Positions 2,113 through 62,714 of a DNA stretch of 64,000 nt are shown one piece after another. The notes under the pieces were generated by a model. The model was not told the origin of the DNA. It saw only the letters and a program-made list of their open reading frames with translations, and did no database searches. A program made the translations under genes and the position numbers. Each line of letters begins with the position of its first letter. The stretch's first letter is position 1. The stretch is from Podarcis vaucheri (Eukaryota), in assembly GCA_965113315.1 (NCBI GenBank), contig OZ220370.1. The stretch is one strand, 5' to 3'.

Positions 2113-4638
2113 ATGGGAGACTGCTTCAGGAGAAAACAAGGTCTGTATCTTTTCCTTTTCCTTTGTCTTCCTGGAGCATTGTATGTTTCAAGCCATTATT
2201 CTGTGCCTGAAGAAAAGAAAACTGGGTCTTTGGTGGCTAATGTGCTGCAGGATTTGAAATTGGGAACAGGGGAGCTCTCTGCTCGCAGAGCCCAGCTAGT
2301 GTCCAAAAGCGCTAAGCAATATTTCCACCTTGATACCCACTTTGGGAATCTGCTGATAAGCGAAAAAATAGACCGAGAAGCTTTATGTGGCCAGACTGAT
2401 CCTTGCTTATTTCTCTCACAAATTGTGCTGGAAAACCCATTAGAGCTCCACAGTATTGTAGTCAAGATAGAAGATGTGAATGACAATGTTCCCAAATTCT
2501 CAACAAAGGAATTTGATCTGGAAATTCCTGAAAATGTCTCTCCAAATACACATTTCCCACTGGAATCTGCCCAAGATGAGGACCTAGGGAGAAATAGCAT
2601 CCAAAATTACACTCTCAGTCCCAATGAACATTTCCGCCTCGATGTTAAAAGTGATGAGGATGGAAACACGCATGTGGATCTTGTCCTGGAGAAGCCACTG
2701 GACAGGGAGAAGGACTCACACTTTGGACTGACTCTCATGGCTGTGGATGGAGGGGAGCCACAGAGAACAGGCACAGTTCAAATAAATATTGATGTTCTTG
2801 ACATCAATGATAATTCCCCACAGTTTACTCATTCTGAATATAAAGTAAAGTTAAAGGAAAACAGCCCACAGGGCACTCTGGTCTCAAAAGTGGAAGCTAC
2901 AGATTTGGATTTTGGTTCAAATGCACAGATCACCTACTCATTCCACCGGATGCCTGAAAAAATAAACAATTTGTTCCACCTAAATGAAGTCACTGGGGAA
3001 ATCACTCTTTTAGGACAAGTTGATTTTGAAAAAGAAACCAGGTATGACATGAAAATTAGAGCAACAGATGGAGGGGGTCTTTCAGGGCACTGCAAGGTTT
3101 TGGTAGAGATTGAGGATGTGAATGACAATGCACCAGAAGTGTCGGTCATATCCATCACTAGTCCTTTGGCAGAGGATTCTCCCCTGGAGACACTTGTGGC
3201 TCTCTTCACTGTCACAGATCGAGACTCCGGAGACAATGGCAGAACCATGTGCTCTGTGGAGACAAACCTTCCCTTTGTCTTAAAACCCACAATGGATAAC
3301 TATTACCAGCTTGTGGTCCAAAGTCCCTTGGACAGAGAGAAAGTCTCAGAGTATAATATCACCATCACAGCCGTAGACCGAGGCTCCCCCAGGCTCACTT
3401 CAACAAGAATTATTAATGTTCAGATCTCAGATGTCAACGACAACCCTCCAGTATTTGAAAAATCTTCATGTGAAATGCAGATACGGGAAAACAATATTCC
3501 AGGACTGCTCATTGGCTCAGTCCATGCTGCTGATCTGGACACCGAGAAGAATGCCAAGGTCACCTACTCCCTTTTGCCTGGGAAGGTCACTGATGGCCTT
3601 GTGGCCTCTTACATCTCGGTCAACTCTGAAAGCGGAAATCTGTATGCCCTCCGATCTCTGGATTATGAGCAGATCAAAGATTTCAAAGTGACGGTGAGGG
3701 CTACAGATGGAGGGTCTCCTTCCCTCAGCTCAGAAGTTACTGTCCGAGTCGTAATCCTAGACGAAAACGACAACGCTCCCTTCTTCCTCTACCCTCTTCA
3801 GAACAGCACATCCCCCTGCAATGAGCTGGTGCCCAAGTCGGTGGAGGCCGGCTACCTGGTCACCAAGGTGGTGGCTGTGGATGGAGATTCTGGCCAGAAC
3901 TCGTGGCTTTCCTATGAGCTGCTGAAGGCCACAGACCCTGGTCTTTTCAGCATAGGAGCCCAGAATGGGGAAGTGAGAACCAGGAGAGCCCTGAGCGAGC
4001 GAGACACCAGCAAGCAGAGACTCCTGATAGTGGTCAGGGACAACGGGCTCCCTCCCCAGAGCAGCACTGCCATGCTCCATGTCCTTCCCGTGGGTGGCTT
4101 TTCGGATCCTTATATGAAGGCTGTGGAGGTCAGGAAAGAGGAGCACAAAGAAGATGGGACCTTGACCTTGTACTTGGTGATCTGCCTGGCTGCAGTCTCC
4201 TTTGTGTTCCTCGTTTGCATTGTTTCCTTTGCTGCCATCAAGATCTGCAGGAGGGATCCCAGGGAAAGTTTTATCGCTGCCCCTCCTCACTTCCCACCTG
4301 CCAGACCCGACATCCCAGAGAACGGTGGCGATTCTCAGAGCGGGTCTCTTTCCAGGAGTTACCACTACGATGTTTGCTTAACCGGTGGGTCCTTGAGCAG
4401 CGAGTTCAGATTCCTCAGGCCCCTCATTCCTGTTTTTTCTGTGGGAGACCCAAACCTCAGTGTGAACCAGACCCCTCCGTCTGCTTCCCAAGATATTCCT
4501 GATAATTTGGAGAGCAGGAAGCCAATGGAACAGGTGAGAGAGATTAGTGTTTTTAATACAAATATACTCAATGCACTAGAAAAAATTGAAATCGTCTTTT
4601 CATTTACAGTATCTCCATATTATTCTGTGTTGAAATGA
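2113..4638 (+). CDS. PCDHB: Clustered protocadherin beta-like, subfamily A (A1)
   Basis: Signal peptide, six cadherin repeats (DRE, DxNDNxP, AxDxG), a TM helix and beta-type motifs [32 protein letters not shown]. Donor CAG|GTGAGA after 4533, so the ORF past 4533 is probably intron read-through. Confidence 0.95.
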   Translation: MGDCFRRKQGLYLFLFLCLPGALYVSSHYSVPEEKKTGSLVANVLQDLKLGTGELSARRAQLVSKSAKQYFHLDTHFGNLLISEKIDREALCGQTDPCLFLSQIVLENPLELHSIVVKIEDVNDNVPKFSTKEFDLEIPENVSPNTHFPLESAQDEDLGRNSIQNYTLSPNEHFRLDVKSDEDGNTHVDLVLEKPLDREKDSHFGLTLMAVDGGEPQRTGTVQINIDVLDINDNSPQFTHSEYKVKLKENSPQGTLVSKVEATDLDFGSNAQITYSFHRMPEKINNLFHLNEVTGEITLLGQVDFEKETRYDMKIRATDGGGLSGHCKVLVEIEDVNDNAPEVSVISITSPLAEDSPLETLVALFTVTDRDSGDNGRTMCSVETNLPFVLKPTMDNYYQLVVQSPLDREKVSEYNITITAVDRGSPRLTSTRIINVQISDVNDNPPVFEKSSCEMQIRENNIPGLLIGSVHAADLDTEKNAKVTYSLLPGKVTDGLVASYISVNSESGNLYALRSLDYEQIKDFKVTVRATDGGSPSLSSEVTVRVVILDENDNAPFFLYPLQNSTSPCNELVPKSVEAGYLVTKVVAVDGDSGQNSWLSYELLKATDPGLFSIGAQNGEVRTRRALSERDTSKQRLLIVVRDNGLPPQSSTAMLHVLPVGGFSDPYMKAVEVRKEEHKEDGTLTLYLVICLAAVSFVFLVCIVSFAAIKICRRDPRESFIAAPPHFPPARPDIPENGGDSQSGSLSRSYHYDVCLTGGSLSSEFRFLRPLIPVFSVGDPNLSVNQTPPSASQDIPDNLESRKPMEQVREISVFNTNILNALEKIEIVFSFTVSPYYSVLK

Positions 4639-10736: not shown

Positions 10737-13181
10737 ATGGAAATACTTCTCAACCTCAGGCAAGTTATGTTTATTTCCTTATATCTCTGTGCATGCATAG
10801 CAATGTGTGAGTCTTTCCGCTATTCAGTGGCAGAGGAAAAGAAAAGTGGGTCTCTGGTGGCAAATGTGCTAAAAGATTTGAGAGTGGATGCAAAGGAGCT
10901 GTCTGCTCGGAGAGCCCGGCTGGTTTCTAAGAGCTCCAAGCAGTATTTCCAGCTGGATCCTCATTCTGGGGATGTGACAGTAAAGGATAAAATAGATCGG
11001 GAGTCCCTGTGTGGTCAGAATGAACCATGTATTCTACTGTCTGAAATTGTGCTGGAAAAGCCATTGCAGCTACACAGAATTGAAGTTCAGATAGAGGATG
11101 TGAATGATAATTCCCCCAAATTCTCTAAAAATCAATTCCTTCTTGAAATACCTGAGCAGACTCCTGTGGATATCAGATTTCCTTTGGAAAGAGCAGAAGA
11201 TCCAGACAAAGGAAAAAATGCTGTTCAGAACTACACCCTTAGTCCTAATGAACATTTTAGGCTGGATGTGCAAAGTCACAGTGATGGTACCAACTATGCA
11301 GAATTGGTGTTAGAGAAACCGCTTGACCGTGAGGAGAATCCACAGATTTCCCTTATTCTGTCAGCAGTTGATGGAGGAATCCCAAAAAGAACTGGAACAG
11401 CACAAATAATCATTGATGTTCTGGATAACAATGATAACTTGCCTCAGTTTCCACAACCTGAGTACAAAGTGAAACTAAAGGAAAATAGCCCATTGGATAC
11501 ACTAGTCACAAAAGTGGAAGCCACTGACAGGGATTTTGGTTCCAATGCTCACATCACTTACTATTTCAGCCAAGTGTCAGAAAATGTGTTGAGATTGTTC
11601 AAGTTAAACAAACACACTGGAGAACTTACTGTTACAGGGACAATTGATTATGAAGAAAGCTCAAATTATGTAATGAAAATCAGAGCTACAGACGGAGGGG
11701 GCCTTTCTGCTTACTGTAAAGTCACTGTAGAGATTGAGGATGAGAACGACAATGCTCCAGAGATTACCATCACATCCATCACCAGTCCCTTACCTGAAGA
11801 CTCTTCCCCAGACACAGTGGTGGCCCTTTTCAGTGTCACAGATGTGGACTCTGGAGACAGTGGCAGAACTGCCTGCACCACTGAAGTCAACCTGCCGTTT
11901 GTGCTCAAACCCACAGAGAACAACTATTACCAGCTGGTGACCCAACAATCACTGGACAGAGAACAAGCCTCTGAGTATAACATCACCATCACAGCCACAG
12001 ACAGGGGCTCTCCCAGACTCACTTCCACAAGAATACTTCATGTTGAAGTATCAGATGTAAATGACAACCCTCCAGTGTTTGAAAAGCCATTATATGAAAT
12101 GAAATTAAGGGAAAACAATATTCCTGGTCTTCTGATCAATTCGGTCCATGCTGTTGATCTGGACACAGCGCAGAATGCCAAAGTGACCTACTCGCTTTTG
12201 CCTGGGAAGGTCAATGATGGCCCCACATCCTCTTACATCTCCATCAACTCTGAAACGGGGAACCTGTATGCCATCCGGTCTCTGGATTATGAGGAAGTAA
12301 AAGATTTCCAGGTGACGGTGAGGGCTGTGGATTCAGGTTCCCCTCCACTGAGCTCAGAAGTTCCCATCCGCGTTCAGGTCGTGGATGAAAATGACAATGC
12401 CCCCTTCATCCTCTACCCTCTCCAGAATGGCACTTCCCCCTCAAATGACCTGGTTCCCCGAGGGGCAGAGACTGGCTACCTGGTCACCAAGGTGGTGGCT
12501 GTGGACAGGGATTCTGCGCAGAACTCTTGGCTTTCCTACCAGCTGCTGAAGGCCACAGAACCGGGTCTGTTCACGGTGGGGGCCCAGAATGGAGAAGTGA
12601 CCACCCTGAGGCCGGTCAGCAACCGAGACAGCTTCAAGCAGAATCTGATTGTGGTGGTCCGAGACAACGGCCATCCTCCCCAGTCCACCTCTGCCACGCT
12701 CAGAATTCTCCTAGTGGACGGCTTTTCTGACCCTTATCTGAAAAGTGTGGCTCTCCCAAAGGAGGAAACAGTGGAGGAGGAAGACCCCAGCCTGACAATG
12801 TATTTGATCATCTGTTTGGCTGCCATCTCAGGCATCTTTCTCATTTCTGTAGTGGCCTTTGTTGTAATCAAGTTGCAGAAACGTGAAAAGTTCATAGGAA
12901 CCTACAACTCTGCAGCCAATTTCCCGGTGGGACCTGATTCCCAGGAGAACTCTGCAGATCCTGGTGCTGGATCTCTATCCCAGGCTTACAACTATGAGGT
13001 GTGCTTAGCTGGTGGGTCTCTGAACAGCGAGTTCAGGTTTCTCAGGCCCCTGTTTCCTGTTTTCTCTGTGGAGCCTCCTAACACTCAGCTGAATCCAAGG
13101 AGTGCCAATGATTCTGAAGGTGTCCCAAGTCATGCAGGTGAAAGTCAACATATCCTCCAGGTGAGAGTACCATTTGAATGA
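10737..13181 (+). CDS. PCDHB: Clustered protocadherin beta-like, subfamily B (B1)
   Basis: Six cadherin repeats and a TM helix with beta signatures [40 protein letters not shown]. Donor CAG|GTGAGA after 13160. Confidence 0.95.
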   Translation: MEILLNLRQVMFISLYLCACIAMCESFRYSVAEEKKSGSLVANVLKDLRVDAKELSARRARLVSKSSKQYFQLDPHSGDVTVKDKIDRESLCGQNEPCILLSEIVLEKPLQLHRIEVQIEDVNDNSPKFSKNQFLLEIPEQTPVDIRFPLERAEDPDKGKNAVQNYTLSPNEHFRLDVQSHSDGTNYAELVLEKPLDREENPQISLILSAVDGGIPKRTGTAQIIIDVLDNNDNLPQFPQPEYKVKLKENSPLDTLVTKVEATDRDFGSNAHITYYFSQVSENVLRLFKLNKHTGELTVTGTIDYEESSNYVMKIRATDGGGLSAYCKVTVEIEDENDNAPEITITSITSPLPEDSSPDTVVALFSVTDVDSGDSGRTACTTEVNLPFVLKPTENNYYQLVTQQSLDREQASEYNITITATDRGSPRLTSTRILHVEVSDVNDNPPVFEKPLYEMKLRENNIPGLLINSVHAVDLDTAQNAKVTYSLLPGKVNDGPTSSYISINSETGNLYAIRSLDYEEVKDFQVTVRAVDSGSPPLSSEVPIRVQVVDENDNAPFILYPLQNGTSPSNDLVPRGAETGYLVTKVVAVDRDSAQNSWLSYQLLKATEPGLFTVGAQNGEVTTLRPVSNRDSFKQNLIVVVRDNGHPPQSTSATLRILLVDGFSDPYLKSVALPKEETVEEEDPSLTMYLIICLAAISGIFLISVVAFVVIKLQKREKFIGTYNSAANFPVGPDSQENSADPGAGSLSQAYNYEVCLAGGSLNSEFRFLRPLFPVFSVEPPNTQLNPRSANDSEGVPSHAGESQHILQVRVPFE

Positions 13182-13209: not shown

Positions 13210-14066
13210 TTGATAATAATTTTTATTAAATTTTCAATTTTACATTTTCAAACAAGCATTTAAAATATCCCATGACTTCCCTTCTCCTTCCATGATTCAT
13301 TTTTCATATCATACACCCTGTTTTACTATTAGCATTCAAATAAGTTTTCCACTTTTACCTCCATCAAAACTTATTTACTCTATTGTATTAATCTTAGTGC
13401 TGCCAGCATTAGCAGTCATTTTTCTTATATTCAGAAAATGTTTTCCACTCTTCTTTAATGTATGTTCTTATTGCTCTCTTATTTTATGTGTTAAATCTGC
13501 ATGTTCTGCATATCCTGTCAACTTAAGTTGCCAATCCTCTTTAGATGGGACCTTGCTCACTTTCCATTTTGGGGCTAATAAAGCACATACCCTAATTATT
13601 GCATACATAAATAACCTTTTCTGACACCTAGGAATTTTAGTTTGGGTTTTCCCCAACAAAAAGTACTCTGGTGGTTTTTTGGGGGTTTTTTTTTGGGGGG
13701 GGAAGTAGTTTTAAACATTTTTTTCAATTCATTATAAATCATTTCCCCATATACTTTTACCTTTTTACATGTCCAACACATGTGAAAAAAACTTCCCTCC
13801 GTTTCTTTACACTTCCAACATGTACTACATGTACCACGGACCACAATTGTTGCATACATAAATAACCTTTTCCGACACCTAGGAATTTCAGTCAACAAAA
13901 AGCGTAAAGTAGTTTTAAACATTCCCCCCCAATTTATTATAAATCATATATACTTTTATCTTTTTACATGTCCACCACATGTGAAAAAATATTCCCTCCG
14001 TTTTTCTACACTTCCAACATGTATTTGATTCTGATTTATAAATCTTAGCCAACCTACTCGGAGTTT
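13210..14066 (-). mobile_element. L1 LINE 3' fragment with internal duplication
   Basis: Minus ORFs 13468-13922 encode an L1 ORF2 C-terminus (CWKCKETEGSFFHMCWTC, KWK..VPSKEDW). Part of 13596-13825 is repeated at ~13845-14020. Confidence 0.75.
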
Positions 14067-15051: not shown

Positions 15052-17481
15052 ATGGGAGACAGCTACAGAAAGGAACAAGGTCTGTATTTTTTGCTTTTCC
15101 TTTGTCTTCCTGGAGCACTGAGTATTTCACTTCACTATTCTGTGCCTGAAGAAAAGAAAAGGGGGTCTTTGGTGGCTAATGTGCTGGAGGATTTGAAACT
15201 GGGACCAGGGGAGCTCTCTGCTCGCAGAGCCCAGCTGGTTTCTAAGAACACTAAGCAATATTTTCATCTTGATACCAAGACTGGGAATTTGTTGATAAAT
15301 GATAAAATAGACCGAGAAACATTATGTGGCCAGACTGATCCTTGCTTATTACAGTCTGAAATTGTTTTGCAAAATCCCTTAAAGATCTTCAGTATTGAAG
15401 TCAAGATAGAAGATGTGAATGATAATGTCCCCAAATTCTCTAAAAAGGCATTTGATCTGGAAATTCCTGAAAACGTCTCTCCAAATACACATTTCCCCTT
15501 GGAATTTGCCCGAGATGAGGACCTGGGGATAAATAACATCCAAAACTACACTCTAAGTCCCAATGAACATTTCATGCTTAGCATGGAGAACAACAAAACT
15601 GGAAGAAAATATGTGGATCTTGTCCTGGAGAAACCACTGGACAGGGAGAAGGACTCACACTTTGGACTGACTCTCACAGCTGTGGATGGAGGGGAGCCAC
15701 GGAGAACAGGCACAGTTCAAATAAATATTGATGTTCTTGACATCAATGATAATTCCCCAGAATTTACTCATTCAGAATATAAAGTAAGGTTAAAGGAAAA
15801 CAGCCCACGGGGTACTCTGGTCTTCAAAGTGGAAGCTACAGATTTGGATTTTGGCTCAAATTCTCAGATAACGTATTCATTCAACCATGTACCTGAAGAA
15901 ATATATGATCTGTTCCACCTAAATGAAATCACTGGGGAAATCACCCTTTCTGGTCAGCTTGATTATGAAGAAGAAACTAGCTATGACATGAACATCAGGG
16001 CAACAGATGCTGGCGGTCTTTCAGGTCACTGCAAGGTCCTGGTAGAGATTGAAGACATGAATGACAATGTCCCTGAAGTGTCCGTCATATCCATCACTAG
16101 TCCTTTGGCAGAGGATTCTCCCCTGGAGAAACTTGTTGCTCTCTTCACTGTCACAGACCGAGACTCTGGAGACAATGGCAGAACCATGTGCTCTGTGGAG
16201 GCAAACCTTCCTTTTATGTTAAAACCCACTATGAATAACTATTACCAGCTTGTGGTCCAAAGTCCCTTGGACAGAGAGAAGGTCCCGGAATATAATATCA
16301 CCATCACAGCTGTTGACCAGGGCTCCCCCAGGCTCACTTCAACAAGAGTGATTAATGTTCAGATCTCAGATGTCAATGACAACCCTCCAGTATTTGAAAC
16401 GTCTTCATGTGAAATGCAGATACGGGAAAACAATATTCCAGGACTGCTCATTGGCTCAGTCCATGCTGCTGATCTGGACACCGAGAAGAATGCCAAGGTC
16501 ACCTACTCCATTTTGCCTGGGAAGGTCACTGATGGCCTTGTGGCCTCTTACATCTCGGTCAACTCTGAAAGCGGAAATCTGTATGCCCTCCGATCTCTGG
16601 ATTACGAGCAGATCAAAGATTTCAAAGTGACGGTGAGGGCTACAGATGGAGGGTCTCCTCCCCTCAGCTCAGAAGTTACTGTCCGAGTCGTAATCCTAGA
16701 CGAAAACGACAACGCTCCCTTCTTCCTCTACCCTCTTCAGAACAGCACATCCCCCTGCAATGAGCTGGTTCCCAAGTCGGTGGAGGCCGGCTACCTGGTC
16801 ACCAAGGTGGTGGCTGTGGATGGAGATTCTGGCCAGAACTCGTGGCTTTCCTATGAGCTGCTGAAGGCCACAGACCCTGGTCTTTTCAGCATAGGAGCCC
16901 AGAATGGGGAAGTGAGAACCAGGAGAGCCCTGAGCGAGCGAGACACCAGCAAGCAGAGACTCCTGATTGTGGTCAGGGACAACGGGCTCCCTCCCCAGAG
17001 CAGCACTGCCATGCTCCATGTCCTTCCCGTGGGTGGCTTTTCGGATCCTTATATGAAGGCTGTGGAGGTCAGTAAAGAGGAGCACGAAGAAGATGGGACC
17101 TTGACCTTGTACTTGGTGATCTGCCTGGCTGCAGTCTCCTTTGTGTTCCTTGTTTGCATTGTTTCCTTTGCTGCCATCAAGATCTGCAGGAGGGATCCCA
17201 GGGAAAGTTTTATCACTGCCCCTCCTCACTTCCCACCTGCCAGACCCGACATCCCAGAGAACGGTGGCGATTCTCAGAGCGGGTCTCTTTCCAGGAGTTA
17301 CCACTACGATGTGTGCTTAACCGGTGGGTCCTTGAGCAGCGAGTTCAGGTTCCTCAGGCCCCTCATTCCTGTTTTTTCTGTGGGGGACCCAAACCTCAAT
17401 GTGAACCAGACCCCTCCGCCTGCTTCCCAAGATATGCCTGACCAGGTGGGGAAAGAAGAATCAAAAGAAAAGGTGAAATAA
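15052..17481 (+). CDS. PCDHB: Clustered protocadherin beta-like, subfamily A (A2)
   Basis: Same architecture as A1. Weaker donor AAG|GTGAAA after 17472, with a stop two codons later. Confidence 0.95.
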   Translation: MGDSYRKEQGLYFLLFLCLPGALSISLHYSVPEEKKRGSLVANVLEDLKLGPGELSARRAQLVSKNTKQYFHLDTKTGNLLINDKIDRETLCGQTDPCLLQSEIVLQNPLKIFSIEVKIEDVNDNVPKFSKKAFDLEIPENVSPNTHFPLEFARDEDLGINNIQNYTLSPNEHFMLSMENNKTGRKYVDLVLEKPLDREKDSHFGLTLTAVDGGEPRRTGTVQINIDVLDINDNSPEFTHSEYKVRLKENSPRGTLVFKVEATDLDFGSNSQITYSFNHVPEEIYDLFHLNEITGEITLSGQLDYEEETSYDMNIRATDAGGLSGHCKVLVEIEDMNDNVPEVSVISITSPLAEDSPLEKLVALFTVTDRDSGDNGRTMCSVEANLPFMLKPTMNNYYQLVVQSPLDREKVPEYNITITAVDQGSPRLTSTRVINVQISDVNDNPPVFETSSCEMQIRENNIPGLLIGSVHAADLDTEKNAKVTYSILPGKVTDGLVASYISVNSESGNLYALRSLDYEQIKDFKVTVRATDGGSPPLSSEVTVRVVILDENDNAPFFLYPLQNSTSPCNELVPKSVEAGYLVTKVVAVDGDSGQNSWLSYELLKATDPGLFSIGAQNGEVRTRRALSERDTSKQRLLIVVRDNGLPPQSSTAMLHVLPVGGFSDPYMKAVEVSKEEHEEDGTLTLYLVICLAAVSFVFLVCIVSFAAIKICRRDPRESFITAPPHFPPARPDIPENGGDSQSGSLSRSYHYDVCLTGGSLSSEFRFLRPLIPVFSVGDPNLNVNQTPPPASQDMPDQVGKEESKEKVK

Positions 17482-19212
17482 TTTCCAAGTACACCAGTTA
17501 GTCACTTTGCATATGTTCTCGTATTGCTTTTGAAATTTATTGACAATATATTTTACATTTTAGAGCATGTTTCAGTTTAAAAATGATCTGTTTTTTTCAA
17601 GTCGATTTGAAACTTTTTTCCTCATTTCCCTCTGTCTTCATTGCTGGTCCATCGTCTGCATCTGATGTTTCCTCTCTCCTCCTCTCTTCTTCCAACCTTC
17701 CATTTCTCAGGCAGGGCACCTCTTCTCAGCCCGTTGTTCAGTTCAGATTCTTTCCTTCAGCCCTCCTGCAATTTAGGTCCTCTGCTTTTGGACTTTCTGC
17801 ATATTAAAACTCGCTCAGAACATCATAGCCACTGCAGATACACCAATGTGTCCCAGAATATACATACCTCCAAGGTGTGGACGACATACCTGTAGCTGCA
17901 GCTGCTGAAGTACCTGCACACAGGAGCCCTGATTAGAGCAGAATTCCCAGTTACATACATGGCATTATTTAGAGGGTCTTCTTGCTGGTGGCACCCCACC
18001 TGTGGAATTGCCTTCCATGGGAGGATCACTGAGTACCCTTTTCAGGGTTAAAGGCCTTTATCCAGGCCTTTAAACCATCGGCATTTTGAGCAAACAAATC
18101 TGGGCTCTCATAGTTTTCTGTTTTATATTTTGAACTGTTAATATGTTAAGGGCAAGTAGGCTGACTTGTAATCTGCCATTAGTATAAACAATGTGGGAGA
18201 GGGTAACATAAGCAGTATAGAAATCTGTATTTTAATGAGTCAAACCCTTGGTCCAGGTATCTTTTCAGACCTACCTGAGGATGCCAGGGTTTGAACCAGG
18301 CATGCTTTGTATGCAGAGCAGTTTTTTACCACTGAACAACATGCCCTTTGATGTAAGAATCAGGTTCTGGAGTTTATAGTTGCAAAATGGTGCAACAGAC
18401 TGAATTGAAGCCTGGCATTGTAAAGAAGTACCTTTGAGGATGGTGCATACCAAACCTAGGCTAGAATGAGCTGGTTGTGTAATGAGGGACTTTGGTGGCA
18501 AATTGGCAGGTGCTCTGCATTTTCTTAAATCTACATCACTGGGGGGCTTTTTCTGGAAAGGTTTCTTTTTTGGATTGTATCTTTTAGCCCAATGGTTTGC
18601 TGACATAGGTAAATGGGAAAGTCTAGTATGTGCTTTAATGGTAGTGAAACATATTCATAGTTCTTATTTAATATGGGTTTCTTGGCCAATGTTAGCCAAG
18701 AGGATGTCCTCACCCTGAAAAAGATGGTCAAACAGAGAGACTTTTGTGCAGTTTGCAAGTGAGTTCCAGTTGAAGACACTGACAGAGTGTGGCTGAGTGA
18801 GGAACAATAAAGCGATGGGGGAAGGAGATGAAAAAGTCCTATATGTTCATAGCTGTGGCAACTTAGTCAAGGCTGATTTGGCTGAATCACATCCCACCAT
18901 TATAATGAGAAATGAGGAGTGGAGACATTAAGTTCTATGGCTTATACTTTGAAACTTGGCAACATATGTTTTGTATAGTGCCTTCCTGCAAGTGCAGGAC
19001 ATGATTAGACATGGTTAAAATTGTGCTGTAAGATCTACTGAACAGAACACTCAGCCGTGAGTTCCCACCAGACTGGTGTAAGATCAAGCACATCAGAAGT
19101 CTTTACCATTGCTTGGAAGAGACTCTTGTGTTCCCTCCATTCTCCACACCCTCAGCACAAATTAAAGAAGCAACTTGGTCCTATCCCCTGAGCCAACAAA
19201 CATGTGCTAGAG

Positions 19213-31019: not shown

Positions 31020-31579
<560 letters not shown>

Positions 31580-31756
31580 TTTGATAATAATGTTTATTAA
31601 ATCTTCAATTTTACATTTTCAAATAAGCCTTTAAAATATCCCATGACTTCCCTTCTCCTTCCATGATTCATTTTTCATATCCAAATTTTACTATAAGCAT
31701 TCAAATAAAAAAATTCCTTCCAGTAGCACCTTAAAGACCAACTAAGTTAGTTCTTG

Positions 31757-31794
31757 GTATGAGCTTTCGTGTGCATGCACACTTATTCAGATAC
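31757..31794 (-). ncRNA. Hammerhead copy with core mutation (CUGAAUA)
   Basis: Reverse complement of 32284-32321 except at position 31785, which changes core G8 to U. Confidence 0.6.
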
Positions 31795-32283: not shown

Positions 32284-32321
32284 GTATCTGAAGAAGTGTG
32301 CATGCACACGAAAGCTCATAC
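32284..32321 (+). ncRNA. Minimal type I hammerhead ribozyme (Penelope-associated)
   Basis: GTAT-CTGAAGA-A-GTGTGC-AT-GCACAC-GAAA-GCTC-ATAC: stem I GTAT/ATAC, CUGANGA box, stem II hairpin, GAAA box, palindromic AGCT in place of stem III, CUC cleavage triplet. Confidence 0.75.
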
Positions 32322-32429
32322 CAAGAACTAACTTAGTTGGTCTTTAAGGTGCTACTGGAAGGAATTTTTTTATTTTGACTATGGCAGACCAACATGGCTA
32401 CCTATCTGTAACTGGAACCATTCAAATAA

Positions 32430-45294: not shown

Positions 45295-46276
45295 AGCAGG
45301 AAGCCAGCGGAACAGGTGAGATAATTTTAAAGAACCTTTTGCTGAATATAGAGGGGGGGAGGGAAAGATTCAAATATGATTTCTGCAATGATATTCTGTG
45401 AAACACCTGAACAACCTGGCTGTACTATTTGGTAAAGTGAGACGTCTATATGTGAGAGCTGGTTAGGGCTGAGTGGGGTTTTGATTGCAGTTACCCTCAC
45501 ACATCCATTGTGGATCAGTGATGGTTCTTTGCCTGTAGTTATTCCACTGCTGCAGGTCTTAACTGTCCCATTGCACCTGTTTCAGGATCCTTCTCTTTCC
45601 TTTCAGGCATCCTTGTGCCCTTATTAGGGGGGTTGCACTCAGAGACCTTGTTTCAAATCCCTGTTGAGCCATTAACTCACTGGGTGGCCTCTGAAATCTA
45701 TTGTATCTCAGTCTTAGTCCATCAAGGCATTGAAAACTTGGAGAGCGACTTCTAATCAGACATTACGGGCGTAGATAAACCAGTGGTAGGATTTTGTGTT
45801 ATGACCTTTCGGGAGGGAAAAAGGAATAAAAATGTAACAACCTGCAAGGGTGATGGTGGAGGATAGGAACCATAAGCACAAAAGTATAAATGTATGGAAG
45901 CCGGTCAAATATTGAGTAAGTCTCAAATCCCCGCTGGCAACACCTTCAGATCCTGCAACATTTTAAAGTAACCCAATGTAGAGATAATGGGGTGACTTGA
46001 CTCCACCACAAGCTATTGCTTCGCTCCCACCGGATATCCCTTCCCTGAATGCTTTGCATTATGGAGGTGTTTTACATGAGGCCACCTTCCTTTATCCTTT
46101 TCACATCATCTCTCTGGCTCCCCTCTCCCACTGCCTCTGTCTACTCTTGGTCCAGGTTTCTCTTCTCTTCTCCCAACAGCACATATCTTCCTTTTCAGTT
46201 TATACTCACCCAGATTCCTTAAAAGTGCAGGCTGAAATGGAGGCCACATCCGCACCATATATTTATAGCACATCTA

Positions 46277-48995: not shown

Positions 48996-48997
<2 letters not shown>

Positions 48998-50297: not shown

Positions 50298-52745
50298 ATG
50301 AAAATCCTCCATTATAGCAGGCAAGTTTGTCTCTTCTTTATCTGTCTCTGTACCTGTGGTGTGGTGTGTGAGTCCTTCCGCTATTCAGTGCCCGAGGAAA
50401 AGAAAAGTGGGTCTCTGGTGGCTAATCTGCTGAAAGATTTGAAAATGGAAGTAAAGGAGCTGTCTGCTCGGAGAGCACAGCTGCTTTCTAAGACTGCCAA
50501 GCAGTATTTTGAGCTGGATCCCCAATCTGGGGATGTGATAATAAAAGATAAAACAGACCGAGAGTCCCTGTGTGGTCAGAATGACCCTTGTGTTCTGCTT
50601 TGTGAAATGGTGCTGGAAAAGCCATGGCAGCTGCACAGAATTGAGATTGAAATAGAGGATGTGAATGATAATTCCCCCATATTCTCTGAAAAACAATTTG
50701 TCTTGGAAATACCTGAGCAGACACCCACAAATACCCGATTCCTTTTGGAAAAAGCTGAAGATTCAGACAGAGGTGAAAATACTATTCAGAACTATACTCT
50801 TAGTCCAAATGAACATTTTAGGCTGGAGGTGGAAAGTCACACTGATGGTGGCAAATATGCAGAACTGGTGTTAGAAAAGCCTTTGGACCGTGAGGAGAAG
50901 CCACAGATTACATTAATGCTATCAGCTGTTGATGGAGGGATCCCAAGAAGGAGCGGAAGTACACAAATTATTGTTCAAGTTCTGGACACCAATGACAATG
51001 CCCCTCACTTTAATAAATCTGTATATAATGTGCAACTACTGGAAAACATTCCACCAGGTACTCTGGTCACCAAAGTTGAAGCCACTGACAGGGATCTTGG
51101 TTCCTACGCACATATCACTTATTCATTCAGGCAAGTCTCAGAAAATGTGTTGAGAAAGTTCAAGTTAAACAAACACTCCGGGGAACTTACTACTGCAGCA
51201 ACAATTGATTATGAAGAAAACACAAATTACCAGATGAACATCAGAGCTACAGATGGAGGAGGCCTTTCTGCTTACTGCAAAGTCATTGTAGAGATTGAGG
51301 ATGAGAACGACAATGCTCCAGAGATTACCATCACTTCCATCACCAGTCCCTTACCTGAAGACTCTCCCCCAGACACAGTGGTGGCCCTCTTCAGTGTCAC
51401 CGACGTGGACTCTGGAGACAGTGGCAGAACTGCCTGCACCACTGAAGTCAACCTGCCATTTGTGCTCAAACCCACGGAGAACAACTATTACCAGCTGGTG
51501 ACCCAACAACCGCTGGACAGAGAACAAGCCTCTGAGTATAACATCACCATCACAGCCACAGACAGGGGCTCTCCCAGACTCACTTCCACAAGAATACTTC
51601 ATGTTGAAGTGTCAGATGTCAATGACAACCCTCCAGTCTTTGAAAAGCCATTCTATGAAATGCAGTTAAGAGAAAACAATATTCCTGGTCTTCTGATCAA
51701 TTCGGTCCATGCTGTTGATCTGGACACAGCGCAGAATGCCAAAGTGACCTACTCGCTTTTGCCTGGGAAGGTCAATGATGGCCCCACATCCTCTTACATC
51801 TCCATCAATTCTGAAACGGGGAACCTGTATGCCATCCGGTCTCTGGATTATGAGGAAGTACAAGATTTCCAGGTGACGGTGAGGGCTGTGGATTCAGGTT
51901 CCCCTCCACTGAGCTCAGAAGTTCCCATCCGCGTTCAGGTCGTGGATGAAAATGACAATGCCCCCTTCATCCTCTACCCTCTCCAGAATGGCACTTCCCC
52001 CTCGAATGACCTGGTTCCCCGAGGGGCAGAGACTGGCTACCTGGTCACCAAGGTGGTGGCTGTGGACAGGGATTCTGCGCAGAACTCTTGGCTTTCCTAC
52101 CAGCTGCTGAAGGCCACAGAGCCGGGTCTGTTCACGGTGGGGGCCCAGAATGGAGAAGTGACCACCCTGAGGCCGGTCAGCAACCGAGACAGCTTCAAGC
52201 AGAATCTGATTGTGGTGGTCCGAGACAACGGCCATCCTCCCCAGTCCACCTCTGCCACGCTCAGAATCCTCCTAGTGGACGGCTTCTCTGACCCTTATCT
52301 GAAAAGTGTGGCTCTCCCAAAGGAGGAAACAGTGGAGGAGGAAGACCCCAGCCTGACGATGTATTTGATCATCTGCTTGGCTGCCATCTCAAGCATCTTT
52401 CTCATTTCTGTAGTGGCCTTTGTTGTAATCAAGTTGCAGAAACGTGAAAAGTTCACAGGAACCTACAACTCTGGAGCCAATTTCCCGGTGGGACCTGATT
52501 CCCAGGAGATCTCTGCGGATTCTGGCGCTGGATCTCTATCCCAGGCTTACAACTATGAGGTGTGCTTAGCTGGTGGGTCTCTGAACAGCGAGTTCAGGTT
52601 TCTCAGGCCCCTGTTTCCTGTTTTCTCTGTGGAGCCTCCTAACACTCAGCTGAATCCAAGGAGTTCCAGTGGGTCCCAAGAAGTCCCTTGTAATGAAGAA
52701 GAAACGCATCTGAGATGTCAGGTGAGGATAATTAGTATAATATGA
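50298..52745 (+). CDS. PCDHB: Clustered protocadherin beta-like, subfamily B (B5, divergent N-terminal half)
   Basis: ATG 50298 aligns with paralogs (the ORF-track start at 50082 is GTG). Donor CAG|GTGAGG after 52721; AATAAA ~15 nt after the stop. Confidence 0.95.
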   Translation: MKILHYSRQVCLFFICLCTCGVVCESFRYSVPEEKKSGSLVANLLKDLKMEVKELSARRAQLLSKTAKQYFELDPQSGDVIIKDKTDRESLCGQNDPCVLLCEMVLEKPWQLHRIEIEIEDVNDNSPIFSEKQFVLEIPEQTPTNTRFLLEKAEDSDRGENTIQNYTLSPNEHFRLEVESHTDGGKYAELVLEKPLDREEKPQITLMLSAVDGGIPRRSGSTQIIVQVLDTNDNAPHFNKSVYNVQLLENIPPGTLVTKVEATDRDLGSYAHITYSFRQVSENVLRKFKLNKHSGELTTAATIDYEENTNYQMNIRATDGGGLSAYCKVIVEIEDENDNAPEITITSITSPLPEDSPPDTVVALFSVTDVDSGDSGRTACTTEVNLPFVLKPTENNYYQLVTQQPLDREQASEYNITITATDRGSPRLTSTRILHVEVSDVNDNPPVFEKPFYEMQLRENNIPGLLINSVHAVDLDTAQNAKVTYSLLPGKVNDGPTSSYISINSETGNLYAIRSLDYEEVQDFQVTVRAVDSGSPPLSSEVPIRVQVVDENDNAPFILYPLQNGTSPSNDLVPRGAETGYLVTKVVAVDRDSAQNSWLSYQLLKATEPGLFTVGAQNGEVTTLRPVSNRDSFKQNLIVVVRDNGHPPQSTSATLRILLVDGFSDPYLKSVALPKEETVEEEDPSLTMYLIICLAAISSIFLISVVAFVVIKLQKREKFTGTYNSGANFPVGPDSQEISADSGAGSLSQAYNYEVCLAGGSLNSEFRFLRPLFPVFSVEPPNTQLNPRSSSGSQEVPCNEEETHLRCQVRIISII

Positions 52746-53293: not shown

Positions 53294-55726
53294 ATGGAAG
53301 ACTGCATCAGGAACAGGCAAGGTCTGTATCTCTTCCTCTTATTCTCTGTGTCTAGAGTGATGTGTATCTCAATACGCTATTCTGTGCCTGAAGAAAAGAA
53401 AAGTGGATTTCTGGTGGCTAATGTGCTGAAGGATTTGAAACTGGGAACAGGGGAGCTGTCTGCTCGCAGAGCCCAGCTAGTGTCCGAAAGCACACAGCAA
53501 TATTTCCACCTTGATACCCACTCTGGGAATCTGCTGATAAATGATAAAGTAGACAGGGAAGCTTTGTGTGGTGAGACTGATCCTTGCTTGCTGCTCTCTG
53601 AAATTGTGCTCCAAAACCCCTTAAAAATCTACAGTATAGAGATAGAGATAAAAGATGTAAATGACAATACTCCCAAATTCTCAAAAAAGGAATTCAAGCT
53701 ATATATTCCAGAGAATGTCCCTATCAACACCCAATTCCCTTTGGAATCTGCACAAGATACAGATTTGGATAAAAATAACGTCCAAAACTACACTCTCAGT
53801 TCCAATGAGCATTTCTGGCTCCAAGTAAAAAGTGATGAAAGTGGAAACAAATATTTGGACCTTATTTTGGTGAAACCTCTAGATAGGGAAGAAGCATCAG
53901 AGTTTGGACTGACTCTCACAGCTGTGGATGGAGGGGAGCCACAGAGAACAGGCACAGTTCAGATAAATATCAAGGTTTTGGACATCAATGATAATTTCCC
54001 CCAGTTTACTCATTCTGAATATAAAGTAAGGTTAAAGGAAAACAGCCCTAGAGACACCCTGGTCTCCAAAGTAGAAGCCAGAGATTCAGATTTTGGTTCA
54101 AATGCACGAATAACGTACTCATTTGATCGGGTACCTGAAAAAATACACCGTTGCTTCCACTTAAATGATCTCACTGGGGAAATAACTGTTTTGGGACAAA
54201 TTGATTATGAAAAAGAAACCAGTTACAGCATGAGCATCAGAGCAACAGATGGAGGGGATCTTTCAGGTCACTGCAAGGTCCTGGTAGAGATTGAAGACGT
54301 GAATGACAATGTCCCCGAAGTATCCATCATATCCATCACTAGTCCTTTGGCAGAAGATTCTCCCCTGGAGACACTTGTGGCTCTCTTCAGTGTCACAGAC
54401 CGAGACTCCGGAGAAAACGGCAGAACTGTGTGTTCTGTGGAGGTAAACCTTCCCTTTGTTTTAAAACCCACTATGAATAACTATTACCAGCTTGTGGTCC
54501 AAAGTCCCTTGGACAGAGAGAAGGTCTCAGAGTATAATGTCACCATCACAGCCACTGACCAAGGCTCCCCCAGGCTCACTTCAACAAGAATTATTAACGT
54601 TGAGATCTCAGATGTCAATGACAACCCTCCAGTATTTGAAACGTCTTCATGTGAAATGCAGATACGGGAAAACAATATTCCAGGACTGCTCATTGGCTCA
54701 GTCCATGCTGCTGATCTGGACACTGAGAAGAATGCCAAGGTCACCTACTCCCTTTTGCCTGGGAAGGTCACTGATGGCCTTGTGGCCTCTTACATCTCAG
54801 TCAACTCTGAAAGCGGAAATCTGTATGCCCTCCGATCTCTGGATTATGAGCAGATCAAAGATTTCAAAGTGACGGTGAGGGCTACAGATGGAGGGTCTCC
54901 TCCTCTCAGCTCAGAAGTTACTGTCCGAGTCGTAATCCTAGACGAAAACGACAACGCTCCCTTCTTCCTCTACCCTCTTCAGAACAGCACATCCCCCTGC
55001 AATGAGCTGGTCCCCAAGTCGGTGGAGGCCGGCTACCTGGTCACCAAGGTGGTGGCTGTGGATGGAGATTCTGGCCAGAACTCGTGGCTTTCCTATGAGC
55101 TGCTGAAGGCCACAGACCCTGGTCTTTTCAGCATAGGAGCCCAGAATGGGGAAGTGAGAACCAGGAGAGCCCTGAGCGAGCGAGACACCAGCAAGCAGAG
55201 ACTCCTGATAGTGGTCAGGGACAACGGGCTCCCTCCCCAGAGCAGCACTGCCATGCTCCATGTCCTTCCCGTGGGTGGCTTTTCGGATCCTTATATGAAG
55301 GCTGTGGAGGTCAGTAAAGAGGAGCACGAAGAAGATGGAACCTTGACCTTGTACTTGGTGATCTGCCTGGCTGCAGTCTCCTTTGTGTTCCTCGTTTGCA
55401 TTGTTTCCTTTGCTGCCATCAAGATCTGCAGGAGGGATCCCAGGGAAAGTTTTATCGCTGCCCCTCCTCACTTCCCACCTGCCAGACCCGACATCCCAGA
55501 GAACTGTGGCGATTCTCAGAGCGGGTCTCTTTCCAGGAGTTACCACTACGATGTTTGCTTAACCGGTGGGTCCTTGAGCAGCGAGTTCAGGTTCCTCAGG
55601 CCCCTCATTCCTGTTTTTTCTGTGGGGGACCCAAACCTCAATGTGAACCAGGCCCCTCCGTCTGCTTCCCAAGATATTCCTGACCAGGCGGGGAAAACCG
55701 AATCAGGGAAAGAGGTGAGCAATTAG
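53294..55726 (+). CDS. PCDHB: Clustered protocadherin beta-like, subfamily A (A6)
   Basis: ATG 53294 (ACCATGG). Full architecture; donor GAG|GTGAGC after 55714. Confidence 0.95.
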   Translation: MEDCIRNRQGLYLFLLFSVSRVMCISIRYSVPEEKKSGFLVANVLKDLKLGTGELSARRAQLVSESTQQYFHLDTHSGNLLINDKVDREALCGETDPCLLLSEIVLQNPLKIYSIEIEIKDVNDNTPKFSKKEFKLYIPENVPINTQFPLESAQDTDLDKNNVQNYTLSSNEHFWLQVKSDESGNKYLDLILVKPLDREEASEFGLTLTAVDGGEPQRTGTVQINIKVLDINDNFPQFTHSEYKVRLKENSPRDTLVSKVEARDSDFGSNARITYSFDRVPEKIHRCFHLNDLTGEITVLGQIDYEKETSYSMSIRATDGGDLSGHCKVLVEIEDVNDNVPEVSIISITSPLAEDSPLETLVALFSVTDRDSGENGRTVCSVEVNLPFVLKPTMNNYYQLVVQSPLDREKVSEYNVTITATDQGSPRLTSTRIINVEISDVNDNPPVFETSSCEMQIRENNIPGLLIGSVHAADLDTEKNAKVTYSLLPGKVTDGLVASYISVNSESGNLYALRSLDYEQIKDFKVTVRATDGGSPPLSSEVTVRVVILDENDNAPFFLYPLQNSTSPCNELVPKSVEAGYLVTKVVAVDGDSGQNSWLSYELLKATDPGLFSIGAQNGEVRTRRALSERDTSKQRLLIVVRDNGLPPQSSTAMLHVLPVGGFSDPYMKAVEVSKEEHEEDGTLTLYLVICLAAVSFVFLVCIVSFAAIKICRRDPRESFIAAPPHFPPARPDIPENCGDSQSGSLSRSYHYDVCLTGGSLSSEFRFLRPLIPVFSVGDPNLNVNQAPPSASQDIPDQAGKTESGKEVSN

Positions 55727-60245: not shown

Positions 60246-62714
60246 ATGGAAATGAATAACAGGAACAGGCAAGTGACTTTTTTCTTTCTGTCTCTCTGCA
60301 TGTATGGGGCAATATGCAATTCCATCCAATATTCAGTGCCAGAGGAAAGGAAAACAGGGTCCTTGGTGGCTAATGTGCTGAAAGATTTGAAAGTGGATGC
60401 AAAGGAGCTGTCTGCTCGGAGAGCCCGGCTGGTTTCTAAGAGCAGCAAGCAGTATTTCCAGCTGGATCCTCATTCTGGCAACATGATATTAAAGGATAGA
60501 ATAGATCGAGAGGCTCTCTGTGGTCAGAATGACCATTGTGTTCTGCTCTCTGAAATTGTGCTAGAAGATCCATTGAAGCTATATAGAATTGAAGTTCAAA
60601 TAGAGGATGTGAATGATAATTCCCCCAAATTCTCGAAAGATCAATTTATTTTTGAAATACCTGAGCAAACTCACATAAATACTGTATTCCCTTTGGAGAG
60701 AGCTCAAGATTCAGACAAAGGAAAAAATACTGTTCAGAATTACACACTTAGTCCTAATAAGTATTTTAGGTTGGATGTGCAGAGTCACAGTGATGGTACC
60801 AACTATGCAGAACTGGTGTTAGAGAAACCGCTAGACCGTGAGGTGAATCCACAGATTTCCCTTATTCTGTCAGCAGTTGATGGAGGGACCCCAAAAAGAA
60901 CTGGAACAGCACAAATAATCATTGATGTTCTGGACATCAATGATAATGCTCCTCTATTTAATAAATCTGTGTACCAGGAAAAACTGATGGAAAACAGCCC
61001 ATTGGGTACATTAGTCACAAGAGTTGAAGCCAGAGACAAGGATATTGGTTCCAATGCTGAAATCACTTACTCATTTAGCCAAGTGCCAGAAAATGTGTTG
61101 AGATCATTCAGGTTAAATAAAAATACTGGGGAACTTACTATCTCAGGTATAATTGATTATGAAGAAAACACAAATTATGAGATGAACATCAGAGCTACAG
61201 ACGGAGGGGGCCTTTCTGCTTACTGTAAAGTCATTGTAGAGATTGAGGATGAGAACGACAATGCTCCAGAGATTACCATCACTTCCATCACCAGTCCCTT
61301 ACCTGAAGACTCTTCCCCAGACACAGTGGTGGCCCTCTTCAGTGTCACAGATGTGGACTCTGGAGACAGTGGCAGAACTGCCTGCACCACTGAAGTTAAC
61401 CTGCCATTTGTGCTCAAACCCACAGAGAACAACTATTACCAGCTGGTAACCCAACAACCACTGGACAGAGAAAAAGCCTCTGAGTATAACATCACCATTA
61501 CAGCCATGGACAGAGGCTCTCCCAGACTCACTTCCACAAGAATACTTCATGTGCAAATCTCAGATGTCAATGACAACCCTCCAGTGTTTGAAAAGCCATT
61601 CTATGAAATGCTGTTAAGAGAAAACAATATTCCAGGTCTTCTGATCAATTCGGTCCATGCTGTTGATCTGGACACAGCGCAGAATGCCAAAGTGACCTAC
61701 TCGCTTTTGCCTGGGAAGGTCAATGATGGCCCCACATCCTCTTACATCTCCATCAACTCTGAAACGGGGAACCTGTATGCCATCCGGTCTCTGGATTATG
61801 AGGAAGTGAAAGATTTCCAGGTGAGGGTGAGGGCTGTGGATTCAGGTTCCCCTCCACTGAGCTCCGAAGTTCCCATCTGCGTTCAGGTCGTGGATGAAAA
61901 TGACAATGCCCCCTTCATCCTCTACCCTCTCCAGAATGGCACTTCCCCCTCGAATGACCTGGTTCCCCGAGGGGCAGAGACTGGCTACCTGGTCACCAAG
62001 GTGGTGGCTGTGGACAGGGATTCTGCGCAGAACTCTTGGCTTTCCTATCAGCTGCTGAAGGCCACAGAGCCGGGTCTGTTCACGGTGGGGGCCCAGAATG
62101 GAGAAGTGACCACCCTGAGGCCGGTCAGCAACCGAGACAGCTTCAAGCAGAATCTGATTGTGGTGGTCCGAGACAACGGCCATCCTCCCCAGTCCACCTC
62201 TGCCACGCTCAGAATCCTCCTAGTGGACGGCTTCTCTGACCCTTATCTGAAAAGTGTGGCTCTCCCAAAGGAGGAAACGGTGGAGGAGGAAGACCCCAGC
62301 CTGACGATGTATTTGATCATCTGCTTGGCTGCCATCTCAAGCATCTTTCTCATTTCTGTAGTGGCATTTGTTGTAATCAAGTTGCAGAAACGTGAAAAGT
62401 TTATAGGAACCTACAACTCTGCAGCCAATTTCCCGGTGGGACCTGATTCCCAGGAGAACTCTGCGGATTCTGGTGCTGGATCTCTATCCCAGGCTTACAA
62501 CTATGAGGTGTGCTTAGCTGGTGGGTCTCTGAACAGCGAGTTCCGGTTTCTCAGGCCCCTATTTCCTGTTTTCTCTGTGGAGCCTCCTAACACTCAGGTG
62601 AATCCAAGGAGTTCCAATGATTCTGAAGGTGTCCCCAGACATGCAGGTGAAAGTCAACATGTGGTTCAGGTGAGAACACTGCTGGGAATTTCTTTTCTAA
62701 TATTTAATTTTTAA
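60246..62714 (+). CDS. PCDHB: Clustered protocadherin beta-like, subfamily B (B6)
   Basis: ATG 60246 aligns with paralogs. Full architecture; donor CAG|GTGAGA after 62669. Confidence 0.95.
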   Translation: MEMNNRNRQVTFFFLSLCMYGAICNSIQYSVPEERKTGSLVANVLKDLKVDAKELSARRARLVSKSSKQYFQLDPHSGNMILKDRIDREALCGQNDHCVLLSEIVLEDPLKLYRIEVQIEDVNDNSPKFSKDQFIFEIPEQTHINTVFPLERAQDSDKGKNTVQNYTLSPNKYFRLDVQSHSDGTNYAELVLEKPLDREVNPQISLILSAVDGGTPKRTGTAQIIIDVLDINDNAPLFNKSVYQEKLMENSPLGTLVTRVEARDKDIGSNAEITYSFSQVPENVLRSFRLNKNTGELTISGIIDYEENTNYEMNIRATDGGGLSAYCKVIVEIEDENDNAPEITITSITSPLPEDSSPDTVVALFSVTDVDSGDSGRTACTTEVNLPFVLKPTENNYYQLVTQQPLDREKASEYNITITAMDRGSPRLTSTRILHVQISDVNDNPPVFEKPFYEMLLRENNIPGLLINSVHAVDLDTAQNAKVTYSLLPGKVNDGPTSSYISINSETGNLYAIRSLDYEEVKDFQVRVRAVDSGSPPLSSEVPICVQVVDENDNAPFILYPLQNGTSPSNDLVPRGAETGYLVTKVVAVDRDSAQNSWLSYQLLKATEPGLFTVGAQNGEVTTLRPVSNRDSFKQNLIVVVRDNGHPPQSTSATLRILLVDGFSDPYLKSVALPKEETVEEEDPSLTMYLIICLAAISSIFLISVVAFVVIKLQKREKFIGTYNSAANFPVGPDSQENSADSGAGSLSQAYNYEVCLAGGSLNSEFRFLRPLFPVFSVEPPNTQVNPRSSNDSEGVPRHAGESQHVVQVRTLLGISFLIFNF

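What the first reader, a model, noticed from the sequence alone, without database searches (positions are those of the whole stretch)
2113..62714. Strict A/B alternation of two subfamilies over 12 consecutive positions
Seen: order A1-B1-A2-B2-A3-B3(relic)-A4-B4-A5-B5-A6-B6 with no exception. Spacers share non-coding blocks (e.g. ~18380-18960 with ~30020-30680; ~21100-21140 with ~30965-31000; ~21290-21350 with ~38100-38160), and the same L1 follows B1, B2 and B3. Inference: the array grew by repeated duplication of a two-gene cassette. Alternation persists even among older, diverged pairs (A5/B5/A6/B6), so the pair may be a functional or regulatory unit.
Basis: partly seen in the sequence, partly recalled or inferred. 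Interest (0 to 1): 0.7.

Follow-up and report, generated by a model that had tools for sequence, protein, structure and literature searches.

The report
Lizard beta-protocadherins share a hidden tail
The alternating genes are a lizard's beta-protocadherin nerve-recognition genes, whose A-B order is likely a by-product of gene duplication, but just past them lies a shared end exon that the papers read say beta genes lack, joined to them in RNA-type contigs of a related lizard, matched in bird gene models, and likely recycled from a piece of an old protocadherin exon.

Summary
The alternation is real (p=0.002). The window is the protocadherin-beta subcluster of a lacertid lizard, whose full order is B-B-A-B-A-B-A-B-A-b-A-B-A-B-A-B.

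Cassette duplication is shown for the central B1-to-B4 block only. The A-B pair is not a functional unit: each gene has its own CTCF-like promoter site, B3 is deleted, and anole beta3-10 are eight A genes in a row. The gamma genes downstream alternate too. Crossover and conversion restricted to same-subfamily paralogs likely suffice.

The unexpected result lies 1.2 kb beyond the window: a single-copy terminal exon of 39 codons. All 15 intact beta exons end in a matching phase-0 donor. Contigs of two RNA-type runs of a relative join B exons to it. It ends 123 of 311 squamate database proteins (A and B) and, as a homolog, 41 of 120 bird beta proteins. The papers read, including the anole study, say beta lacks constant exons. 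The peptide matches only the start of EC6 of variable exons, so it is likely an exonized relic.

A-type joins were not seen directly in RNA; turtles, crocodiles, mammals and coelacanth are untested. No earlier scan note reports this.

The parts
2113..4533 (+). A1, Pcdh-beta variable exon (subfamily A), ATG to phase-0 donor
10737..13160 (+). B1, Pcdh-beta variable exon (subfamily B)
13333..14065 (-). L1-like 3' fragment after B1 (copies after B2 ~24600-25180 and after b3 ~32420-32980): one insertion, duplicated with the cassette (inferred)
15052..17472 (+). A2 variable exon
22020..24437 (+). B2 variable exon
26757..29177 (+). A3 variable exon
31301..31531 (+). b3 relic: only the cytoplasmic end and donor remain; promoter and about 2.2 kb of exon deleted at a 6-bp microhomology (31301-31306)
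34581..37001 (+). A4 variable exon (94% over 5.2 kb with the B2-tail/spacer/A3 block)
39925..42348 (+). B4 variable exon
42895..45315 (+). A5 variable exon; TAG at 45292-45294, 7 codons before its intact donor (the Podarcis ortholog P0005 reads through into the tail)
50298..52721 (+). B5 variable exon
53294..55714 (+). A6 variable exon
60252..62669 (+). B6 variable exon, last of the beta subcluster
1852..1863 (+). CTCF-like promoter motif of A1; one such motif lies 220-295 bp before every intact ATG (also 10444, 14794, 21754, 26512, 34336, 39665, 42646, 50020, 53026, 60015)
   Evidence: pattern derived from these promoters; CTCF likeness recalled, binding untested
62670..64000 (+). 5' part of the 2514-nt intron from the B6 donor to the shared beta terminal exon. 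The exon itself lies just OUTSIDE the window (G000:C27:6699184 onward; L009:1184; extended window coordinates 65184-65303): pyrimidine tract + CAG acceptor, phase 0, 39 codons + TAG, ~2.3 kb 3' UTR, AATAAA at extended coordinate 67571

Best explanation
This is the protocadherin-beta subcluster of a lacertid lizard: two old subfamilies of variable exons, each with its own promoter motif, whose alternation is likely kept mechanically by crossover between same-subfamily copies, and which carry donors that B-type exons use, and A-type exons likely use, to splice to one shared 39-codon terminal exon likely recycled from an EC6 fragment. How it works: (1) SHOWN: A and B are sister clades present from geckos to snakes. 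Within a subfamily EC5-cytoplasm is homogenized while EC2-3 stay diverse; between subfamilies nothing is homogenized. (2) INFERRED: at ~72% DNA identity A and B are too different to recombine, so unequal crossover and gene conversion occur A-A or B-B. In a B-A-B array such a crossover adds or removes whole A-B periods, so alternation persists without selection until a single-gene loss (like b3) creates a same-type neighbour pair, after which runs grow, as in anoles. (3) INFERRED from mammalian alpha/gamma biology (PMC7811963, passages): each neuron picks promoters independently, and the chosen exon splices to the first downstream constant acceptor. (4) SHOWN for B exons in a relative and modelled in databases for A: that acceptor is a beta-specific terminal exon with its own poly(A) signal, giving the isoforms a common short cytoplasmic tail. 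(5) INFERRED: the exon is the exonized EC5/EC6-boundary piece of a dead variable exon (beta-B or gamma-a; not resolved), already present in the lizard-bird ancestor.
For: Identity and position: 12 alpha exons, alphaC1/C2 and an alpha constant exon 1 lie upstream; 42 gamma ORFs (5 C-type) and three gamma constant exons lie downstream. Database names are 'protocadherin beta', and the tree places A+B as sisters (0.999) in a beta clade (0.97) apart from gamma. Conversion: synonymous difference EC2 0.36 (A) and 0.40 (B) vs EC6 0.025 and 0.032, but 0.45-0.72 between A and B. Mechanics: the same locus alternates again in gamma-a/gamma-b and between gamma-b clades (X-Y four times, then X-Z). A toy neutral model gives 100% alternation with no single-gene loss and long runs as loss rises. 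Order varies among squamates. Constant exon: 15 of 15 intact exons plus the relic have a phase-0 AG|GTRA-type donor at the same place; the exon is single copy. Contig depth is 101 (X1) and 34 (X8) from the acceptor to the poly(A) signal, against 0-7 in repeat-free intron bins and beyond; contigs join two kinds of B-exon ends to it (X1 both, X8 one); 9 contigs overlap its first bases in X1. 123 of 311 squamate proteins end in it (64 A, 58 B, 1 fused), as do 41 of 120 bird beta proteins by pattern, and a bird-tail profile scores all 21 distinct lizard tails at 25-54 bits. Origin: the lizard-tail profile hits only the EC6 start (22.6 bits, shuffled maximum 5.9), and so does the independent bird profile (14.5 vs 6.5). 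In 764 kb of six-frame translation the joint profile gives 46 hits of 12 bits or more in long ORFs, and nothing above 8.2 bits in any short segment other than the exon itself, including the segments holding the alpha and gamma constant exons.
Against: No A-type junction was seen directly: the laid stretch held only the end of B6, and 440 loose ends were not shown. The two raw-read RNA runs (X21, X23) covered the exon thinly and showed 0 reads for the listed joint. X1 and X8 are only guessed to be RNA and come from a relative about 97% alike. Database tails are automatic gene models, and many models lack the tail (131 of 234 cluster representatives; only 1 of 30 snake proteins has it). EC6 homology rests on ~30-36 gapless residues at modest scores, with no DNA-level similarity. 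Cassette spacer homology is absent for the outer pairs, and snakes, Zootoca and a gecko also show A-B neighbours, so some selection for keeping both types near each other cannot be excluded. The toy model's parameters are assumed. Locus-tag order is taken as gene order, and tags were only partly retrieved.
Confidence: 0.75

Rival explanations
1. The A-B pair is a selected functional or regulatory unit (co-chosen promoters or an obligatory A/B cis-dimer).
For: Alternation spans 15 positions including old pairs. B-to-A gaps are short, 0.55-0.7 kb in three old pairs. Fused models show B-A or A-B neighbours in Zootoca, rattlesnakes, a gecko and Phrynosoma, and both subfamilies are kept across squamates.
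Against: Eight A genes in a row in anole, five consecutive A tags in Phrynosoma, B-B in this genome and in Gekko kuhli. Loss of B3 is tolerated. One promoter motif per gene. Neutral crossover suffices in the toy model.
Confidence: 0.1
2. The shared tail is a minor or cryptic splice product or an annotation artefact; lizard beta genes are mainly single-exon, as in mammals.
For: The anole paper and two reviews state that beta lacks constant exons. Many database models lack the tail, raw reads laid here gave no joint, and A5 has a stop before its donor.
Against: Donors are conserved in phase in 16 of 16 exons, while the stops after them fall at variable positions. Exon depth is far above repeat-free intron depth, with joints in two studies. 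The 39-residue length and ends are conserved between lizards and most bird tails. The anole paper tested splicing by RT-PCR only for delta, alpha and gamma.
Confidence: 0.07
3. The exon is real but is a shrunken remnant of an ancient gamma- or alpha-type constant region, or arose de novo, and its EC6 likeness is chance.
For: One published scenario derives beta from a whole gamma-cluster duplication whose constant exons decayed. The tail has an N-x-W motif near its end, loosely like constant exon 1.
Against: Tail profiles do not score the segments holding the alpha or gamma constant exons. Two independently built profiles and a whole-genome search all pick the EC6 start.
Confidence: 0.12

Closest known systems
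Pcdh-beta subcluster of green anole (PMC2764143, parts 1-4 of 5 read: whole main text and methods) and of mammals (PMC7811963 and PMC7339444, passages)
   Same: 15 intact genes between alphaC2/alpha constant exons and the first gamma exon; EC1-6, TM and short variable cytoplasmic domain per exon; promoter motif before each gene.
   Different: Described as one paralog subgroup without a constant region. Here there are two interleaved subfamilies, strong 3' homogenization, and a shared terminal exon, which database models show in anole as well.
Interspersed gamma-a/gamma-b variable exons of mammals, anole and coelacanth (PMC2764143)
   Same: Two subgroups interleaved, attributed to duplication as a contiguous block. 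The same pattern lies downstream in this genome.
   Different: That paper calls interspersion a feature unique to the gamma subcluster; here it occurs in beta and also between gamma-b clades.
Alpha and gamma variable-exon/constant-exon splicing (PMC7811963, passages)
   Same: Donors on large variable exons joined to a common downstream acceptor that gives a shared cytoplasmic end.
   Different: One exon of 39 codons instead of three; no detectable homology to alpha/gamma constant exons; homologous to the start of EC6.
Gene conversion of EC5-EC6 in clustered Pcdhs (PMC4978886, passages; PMC2764143)
   Same: Lowest synonymous divergence in EC5-6, highest in EC2-3.
   Different: Ratio about 12-14 here (uncorrected pairwise measure) against 2.52 reported for anole beta (per-branch dS, so not strictly comparable), and it respects subfamily across interleaved neighbours.

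Membership tests
Clustered protocadherin variable exon | One ~2.4-kb exon with signal peptide, six cadherin repeats, TM and short cytoplasmic part | tested here: met
Pcdh-beta subcluster | Position between the alpha constant region and the first gamma variable exon | tested here: met
Pcdh-beta subcluster | Phylogenetic grouping with beta, apart from gamma-a, gamma-b, alpha and C-type | tested here: met
   (support 0.97; the mammal-like members of that tree are unnamed proteins). Among EC1-4-sized solved structures beta6/beta8 score best for A2 and B2, though a longer gamma-A9 chain scored slightly higher for B2. Orthologs are named beta, including the anole TPA genes.
Pcdh-beta subcluster (textbook definition) | Single-exon genes, no constant exon | tested here: not met
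   Filed as orthologous to beta but a variant of the textbook architecture.
Pcdh-beta subcluster (anole description) | A single paralog subgroup | tested here: not met
Clustered Pcdh alternate promoter | A conserved CTCF-type element before each gene | tested here: inconclusive
   One motif per intact gene, 15 matches in 96 kb (+ strand), none before the relic. The pattern was derived from these promoters; likeness to the CTCF consensus is recalled; binding untested.
Clustered Pcdh alternate promoter | Stochastic, independent promoter choice in single neurons | not testable with these tools
   needs single-neuron isoform data
Alpha/gamma-type constant region | Three exons with homology to alpha or gamma constant domains | tested here: not met
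   one exon; no profile score on the segments holding them; no Pfam family
Co-regulated gene pair / cassette | Conserved adjacency across species and a shared control element | tested here: not met

The most novel reading that the evidence does not exclude
The beta subcluster became a separate cluster when a fragment of a dead variable exon at the beta/gamma border turned into a terminal exon with its own poly(A) site, intercepting all upstream variable exons before they reach the gamma constant region. Reptiles and birds keep this third constant region, and the single-exon beta genes of mammals are a secondary loss.
Probability: 0.3. Interest if true: 0.8.

Novelty: new variant of a known kind. 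Interest (0 to 1): 0.62.

Why it matters
'Beta has no constant exon' is repeated in the papers read and is used to frame how the beta cluster arose. A 2020 review lists two scenarios and says further research is needed. A beta-specific shared tail in lizards, a snake and birds changes that picture, offers a third scenario (capture by an exonized relic), and is directly testable in chicken. It would also be a clear case of an extracellular-domain fragment reused as a cytoplasmic tail. The alternation itself is ordinary in kind, but this locus shows it repeatedly and shows how a recombination barrier between subfamilies can both order an array and keep two homogenized cis/cytoplasmic types apart. 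The tail already sits in automatic database models, so it is unnoticed in the papers searched rather than unseen by machines.

Tried and rejected
Shared 348-bp block after A5 and A6 as cassette evidence: rejected, it is a high-copy transposon. Window genes as gamma-a/gamma-b: rejected by position and tree. Splicing to gamma constant exons as the main route: not needed, since a nearer acceptor is used; rare read-through was not tested. A/B chimeric genes: none seen; the segment profiles agree within each unfused protein among the 46 proteins printed, apart from near-ties in EC5. DNA-level relic of a variable exon around the terminal exon: none beyond the coding stretch. Tail among the 100 new 50%-cluster representatives: none carried it, uninformative because representatives are arbitrary. 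No RNA holder was on record in the run search. Pfam gives no family for the tail or the L1-like fragment. Literature: ten searches (listings only, except the four papers named) found no description of a beta constant exon or of two beta subfamilies. Wu 2001, Wu 2005, the two Noonan 2004 papers and Wang 2002 were not held, so they may already mention donors at beta exon ends; subscription journals were not searched, and the anole supplement and figures were not seen. Earlier scan notes held nothing on this. No structure or complex prediction was run.

Full report
Observation. Strict alternation of six and six has chance 0.0022. The three spacer blocks and the L1-like fragment after B1, B2 and b3 are real. 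The closest database proteins are 'protocadherin beta-16-like' of Podarcis, Zootoca and Lacerta at up to 97% in the searched region, so the animal is a lacertid lizard.

Context. The window is G000:C27:6634001-6698000. Upstream lie twelve alpha exons, alphaC1 and C2 and an alpha constant exon 1; downstream lie 42 gamma ORFs and the three gamma constant exons. The array is therefore the beta subcluster: 15 intact genes plus the relic, in the order B-B-A-B-[A-B-A-B-A-b-A-B-A-B-A-B]. In a tree of 95 sequences A and B are sister clades (0.999), each with gecko, skink, anguid, iguanian, snake and amphisbaenian members, inside a beta clade (0.97) with bird, turtle and mammal-like proteins (a selection of the proteins held, fused models left out).

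How the order arose. Colinear spacer homology covers B1-A2-B2-A3-b3-A4-B4, including a 5.2-kb block at 94%, so cassette duplication is shown there. The outer spacers share little beyond subfamily-specific promoter regions and repeats; the one long block shared after A5 and A6 is a transposon. b3 lost its promoter and most of its exon at a 6-bp microhomology. Synonymous difference falls from 0.36-0.40 in EC2-3 to about 0.03 in EC6 within each subfamily, but stays at 0.45-0.72 between them: gene conversion jumps over neighbours and stays within type. I infer that crossover is limited in the same way, which in a B-A-B array adds or removes whole periods. A toy model with assumed parameters gave pure alternation in all 500 runs without single-gene loss; at 5% loss per event over 60 events, 62% were still mostly alternating and 20% had a run of five or more. 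The same locus alternates again in gamma-a/gamma-b and between gamma-b clades. Interspersed gamma subgroups are published and attributed to block duplication.

Is the pair functional? Of 15 anole beta genes 11 were retrieved, and all are A, including beta3-10 in a row. Phrynosoma tags 017123-017127 are all A, and a Gekko kuhli fused model is B-B (tag order taken as gene order, tags only partly seen). Against my reading, fused models show A-B or B-A neighbours in rattlesnakes, Zootoca, a gecko and once in Phrynosoma, so interleaving is old and often kept. Each intact gene has one CTCF-like motif 220-295 bp before its ATG; the pattern, derived from those promoters, matches 15 times on the + strand of 96 kb. 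Co-expression could not be tested.

The shared terminal exon. All 15 intact exons and the relic end in a phase-0 donor at the same position. Many squamate database models continue from there into one 39-residue tail: 123 of 311 proteins held, 64 A, 58 B and 1 fused; 103 of 234 cluster representatives; 1 of 30 snake proteins, in a variant form that the pattern missed. The tail is encoded once in the genome, 2514 nt after the B6 donor and 1.2 kb beyond the window's end, behind a pyrimidine tract and CAG, followed by a stop and an AATAAA 2.3 kb on. In contigs of two runs from different studies (a relative about 97% alike; RNA status is the tool's guess) depth is 101 and 34 from acceptor to poly(A) signal, against 0-7 in repeat-free intron bins. 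Contigs carry the last bases of B-type exons joined to the acceptor, two kinds in X1 and one in X8. Two raw-read RNA runs covered the exon thinly and showed no read for that joint, and no A-type joint was displayed, so A rests on donors and database models. Birds have a homolog: 41 of 120 bird beta proteins end in such a tail, including chicken, ostrich, rhea and passerines, and a profile of 27 bird tails scores all 21 distinct lizard tails at 25-54 bits.

Origin of the exon. The lizard-tail profile hits Pcdh ORFs only at the EC6 start, gapless over 30 residues (22.6 bits; best of 20 shuffles 5.9). The independent bird profile does the same (14.5 bits; best of 15 shuffles 6.5). A whole-genome search returned the exon and 17 weak matches, all in long ORFs on the cluster contig; 16 are at EC6 starts of mapped beta and gamma exons and one ORF further upstream was not examined. 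The segments holding alpha and gamma constant exons do not score. The donor type is unresolved (beta-B and gamma-a tie at 23 bits in the joint profile), and no DNA-level similarity remains. I infer exonization of a variable-exon relic at the beta/gamma border before lizards and birds split.

Comparison with what is known. The anole paper (whole main text read) describes beta as one subgroup without a constant region, calls interspersion unique to gamma, and checked splicing only for delta, alpha and gamma. Two reviews and the Xenopus paper (passages) repeat that beta lacks constant exons, and one calls the origin of beta unresolved. Ten full-text searches found no account of a beta constant exon, but five primary papers were not held and subscription journals were not searched. 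The scan's earlier notes hold nothing on it.

Verdict. Observation confirmed; cassette duplication partly shown; functional pair not supported. The alternation alone would score about 0.25. The beta-specific constant exon shared by lizards and birds, with a probable EC6 origin, makes this a new variant of a known kind. Interest 0.62.

Noticed in passing
window 45292-45294: A5 has a TAG 7 codons before its intact donor, so it would make a tail-less, mammal-style beta protein; the Podarcis ortholog reads through. Could be a fixed change, an allele or an assembly error.
   Followed up: partly
window 31703-32375: A 673-bp element with 269-bp terminal inverted repeats at 99.6%, inserted after b3; likely a young non-autonomous DNA transposon.
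   Followed up: no
G000:C27 about 6828000-6942000 (window +194 kb to +308 kb): Gamma-b genes alternate between clades (X-Y four times, then X-Z), interrupted by single gamma-a genes.
   Followed up: partly
P0503/P0515/P0526, P0506/P0512/P0525/P0529, P0461/P0463: Bird beta tails differ between proteins of one species, suggesting several copies of the terminal exon in birds, unlike the single copy in this lizard.
   Followed up: no
P0359, P0384, P0392 vs P0415-P0533: Birds also have two deeply split beta types, separate from the squamate A/B split; their order and use of the tail were not checked.
   Followed up: partly
window spacers B4>A5 (546 bp), B5>A6 (572 bp), upstream B>A (700 bp): In three old pairs the B-to-A gaps are much shorter than A-to-B gaps (2.9-6.5 kb between intact genes), placing A promoters just behind B donors.
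   Followed up: no
G000:C27:6300982-6301092: A 1015-aa open frame far upstream with a weak match to the tail; possibly the delta-subcluster gene.
   Followed up: no
window 13594-14065: Internal tandem duplication within the L1-like copy after B1 (13594-13824 repeated at 13845-14023).
   Followed up: no
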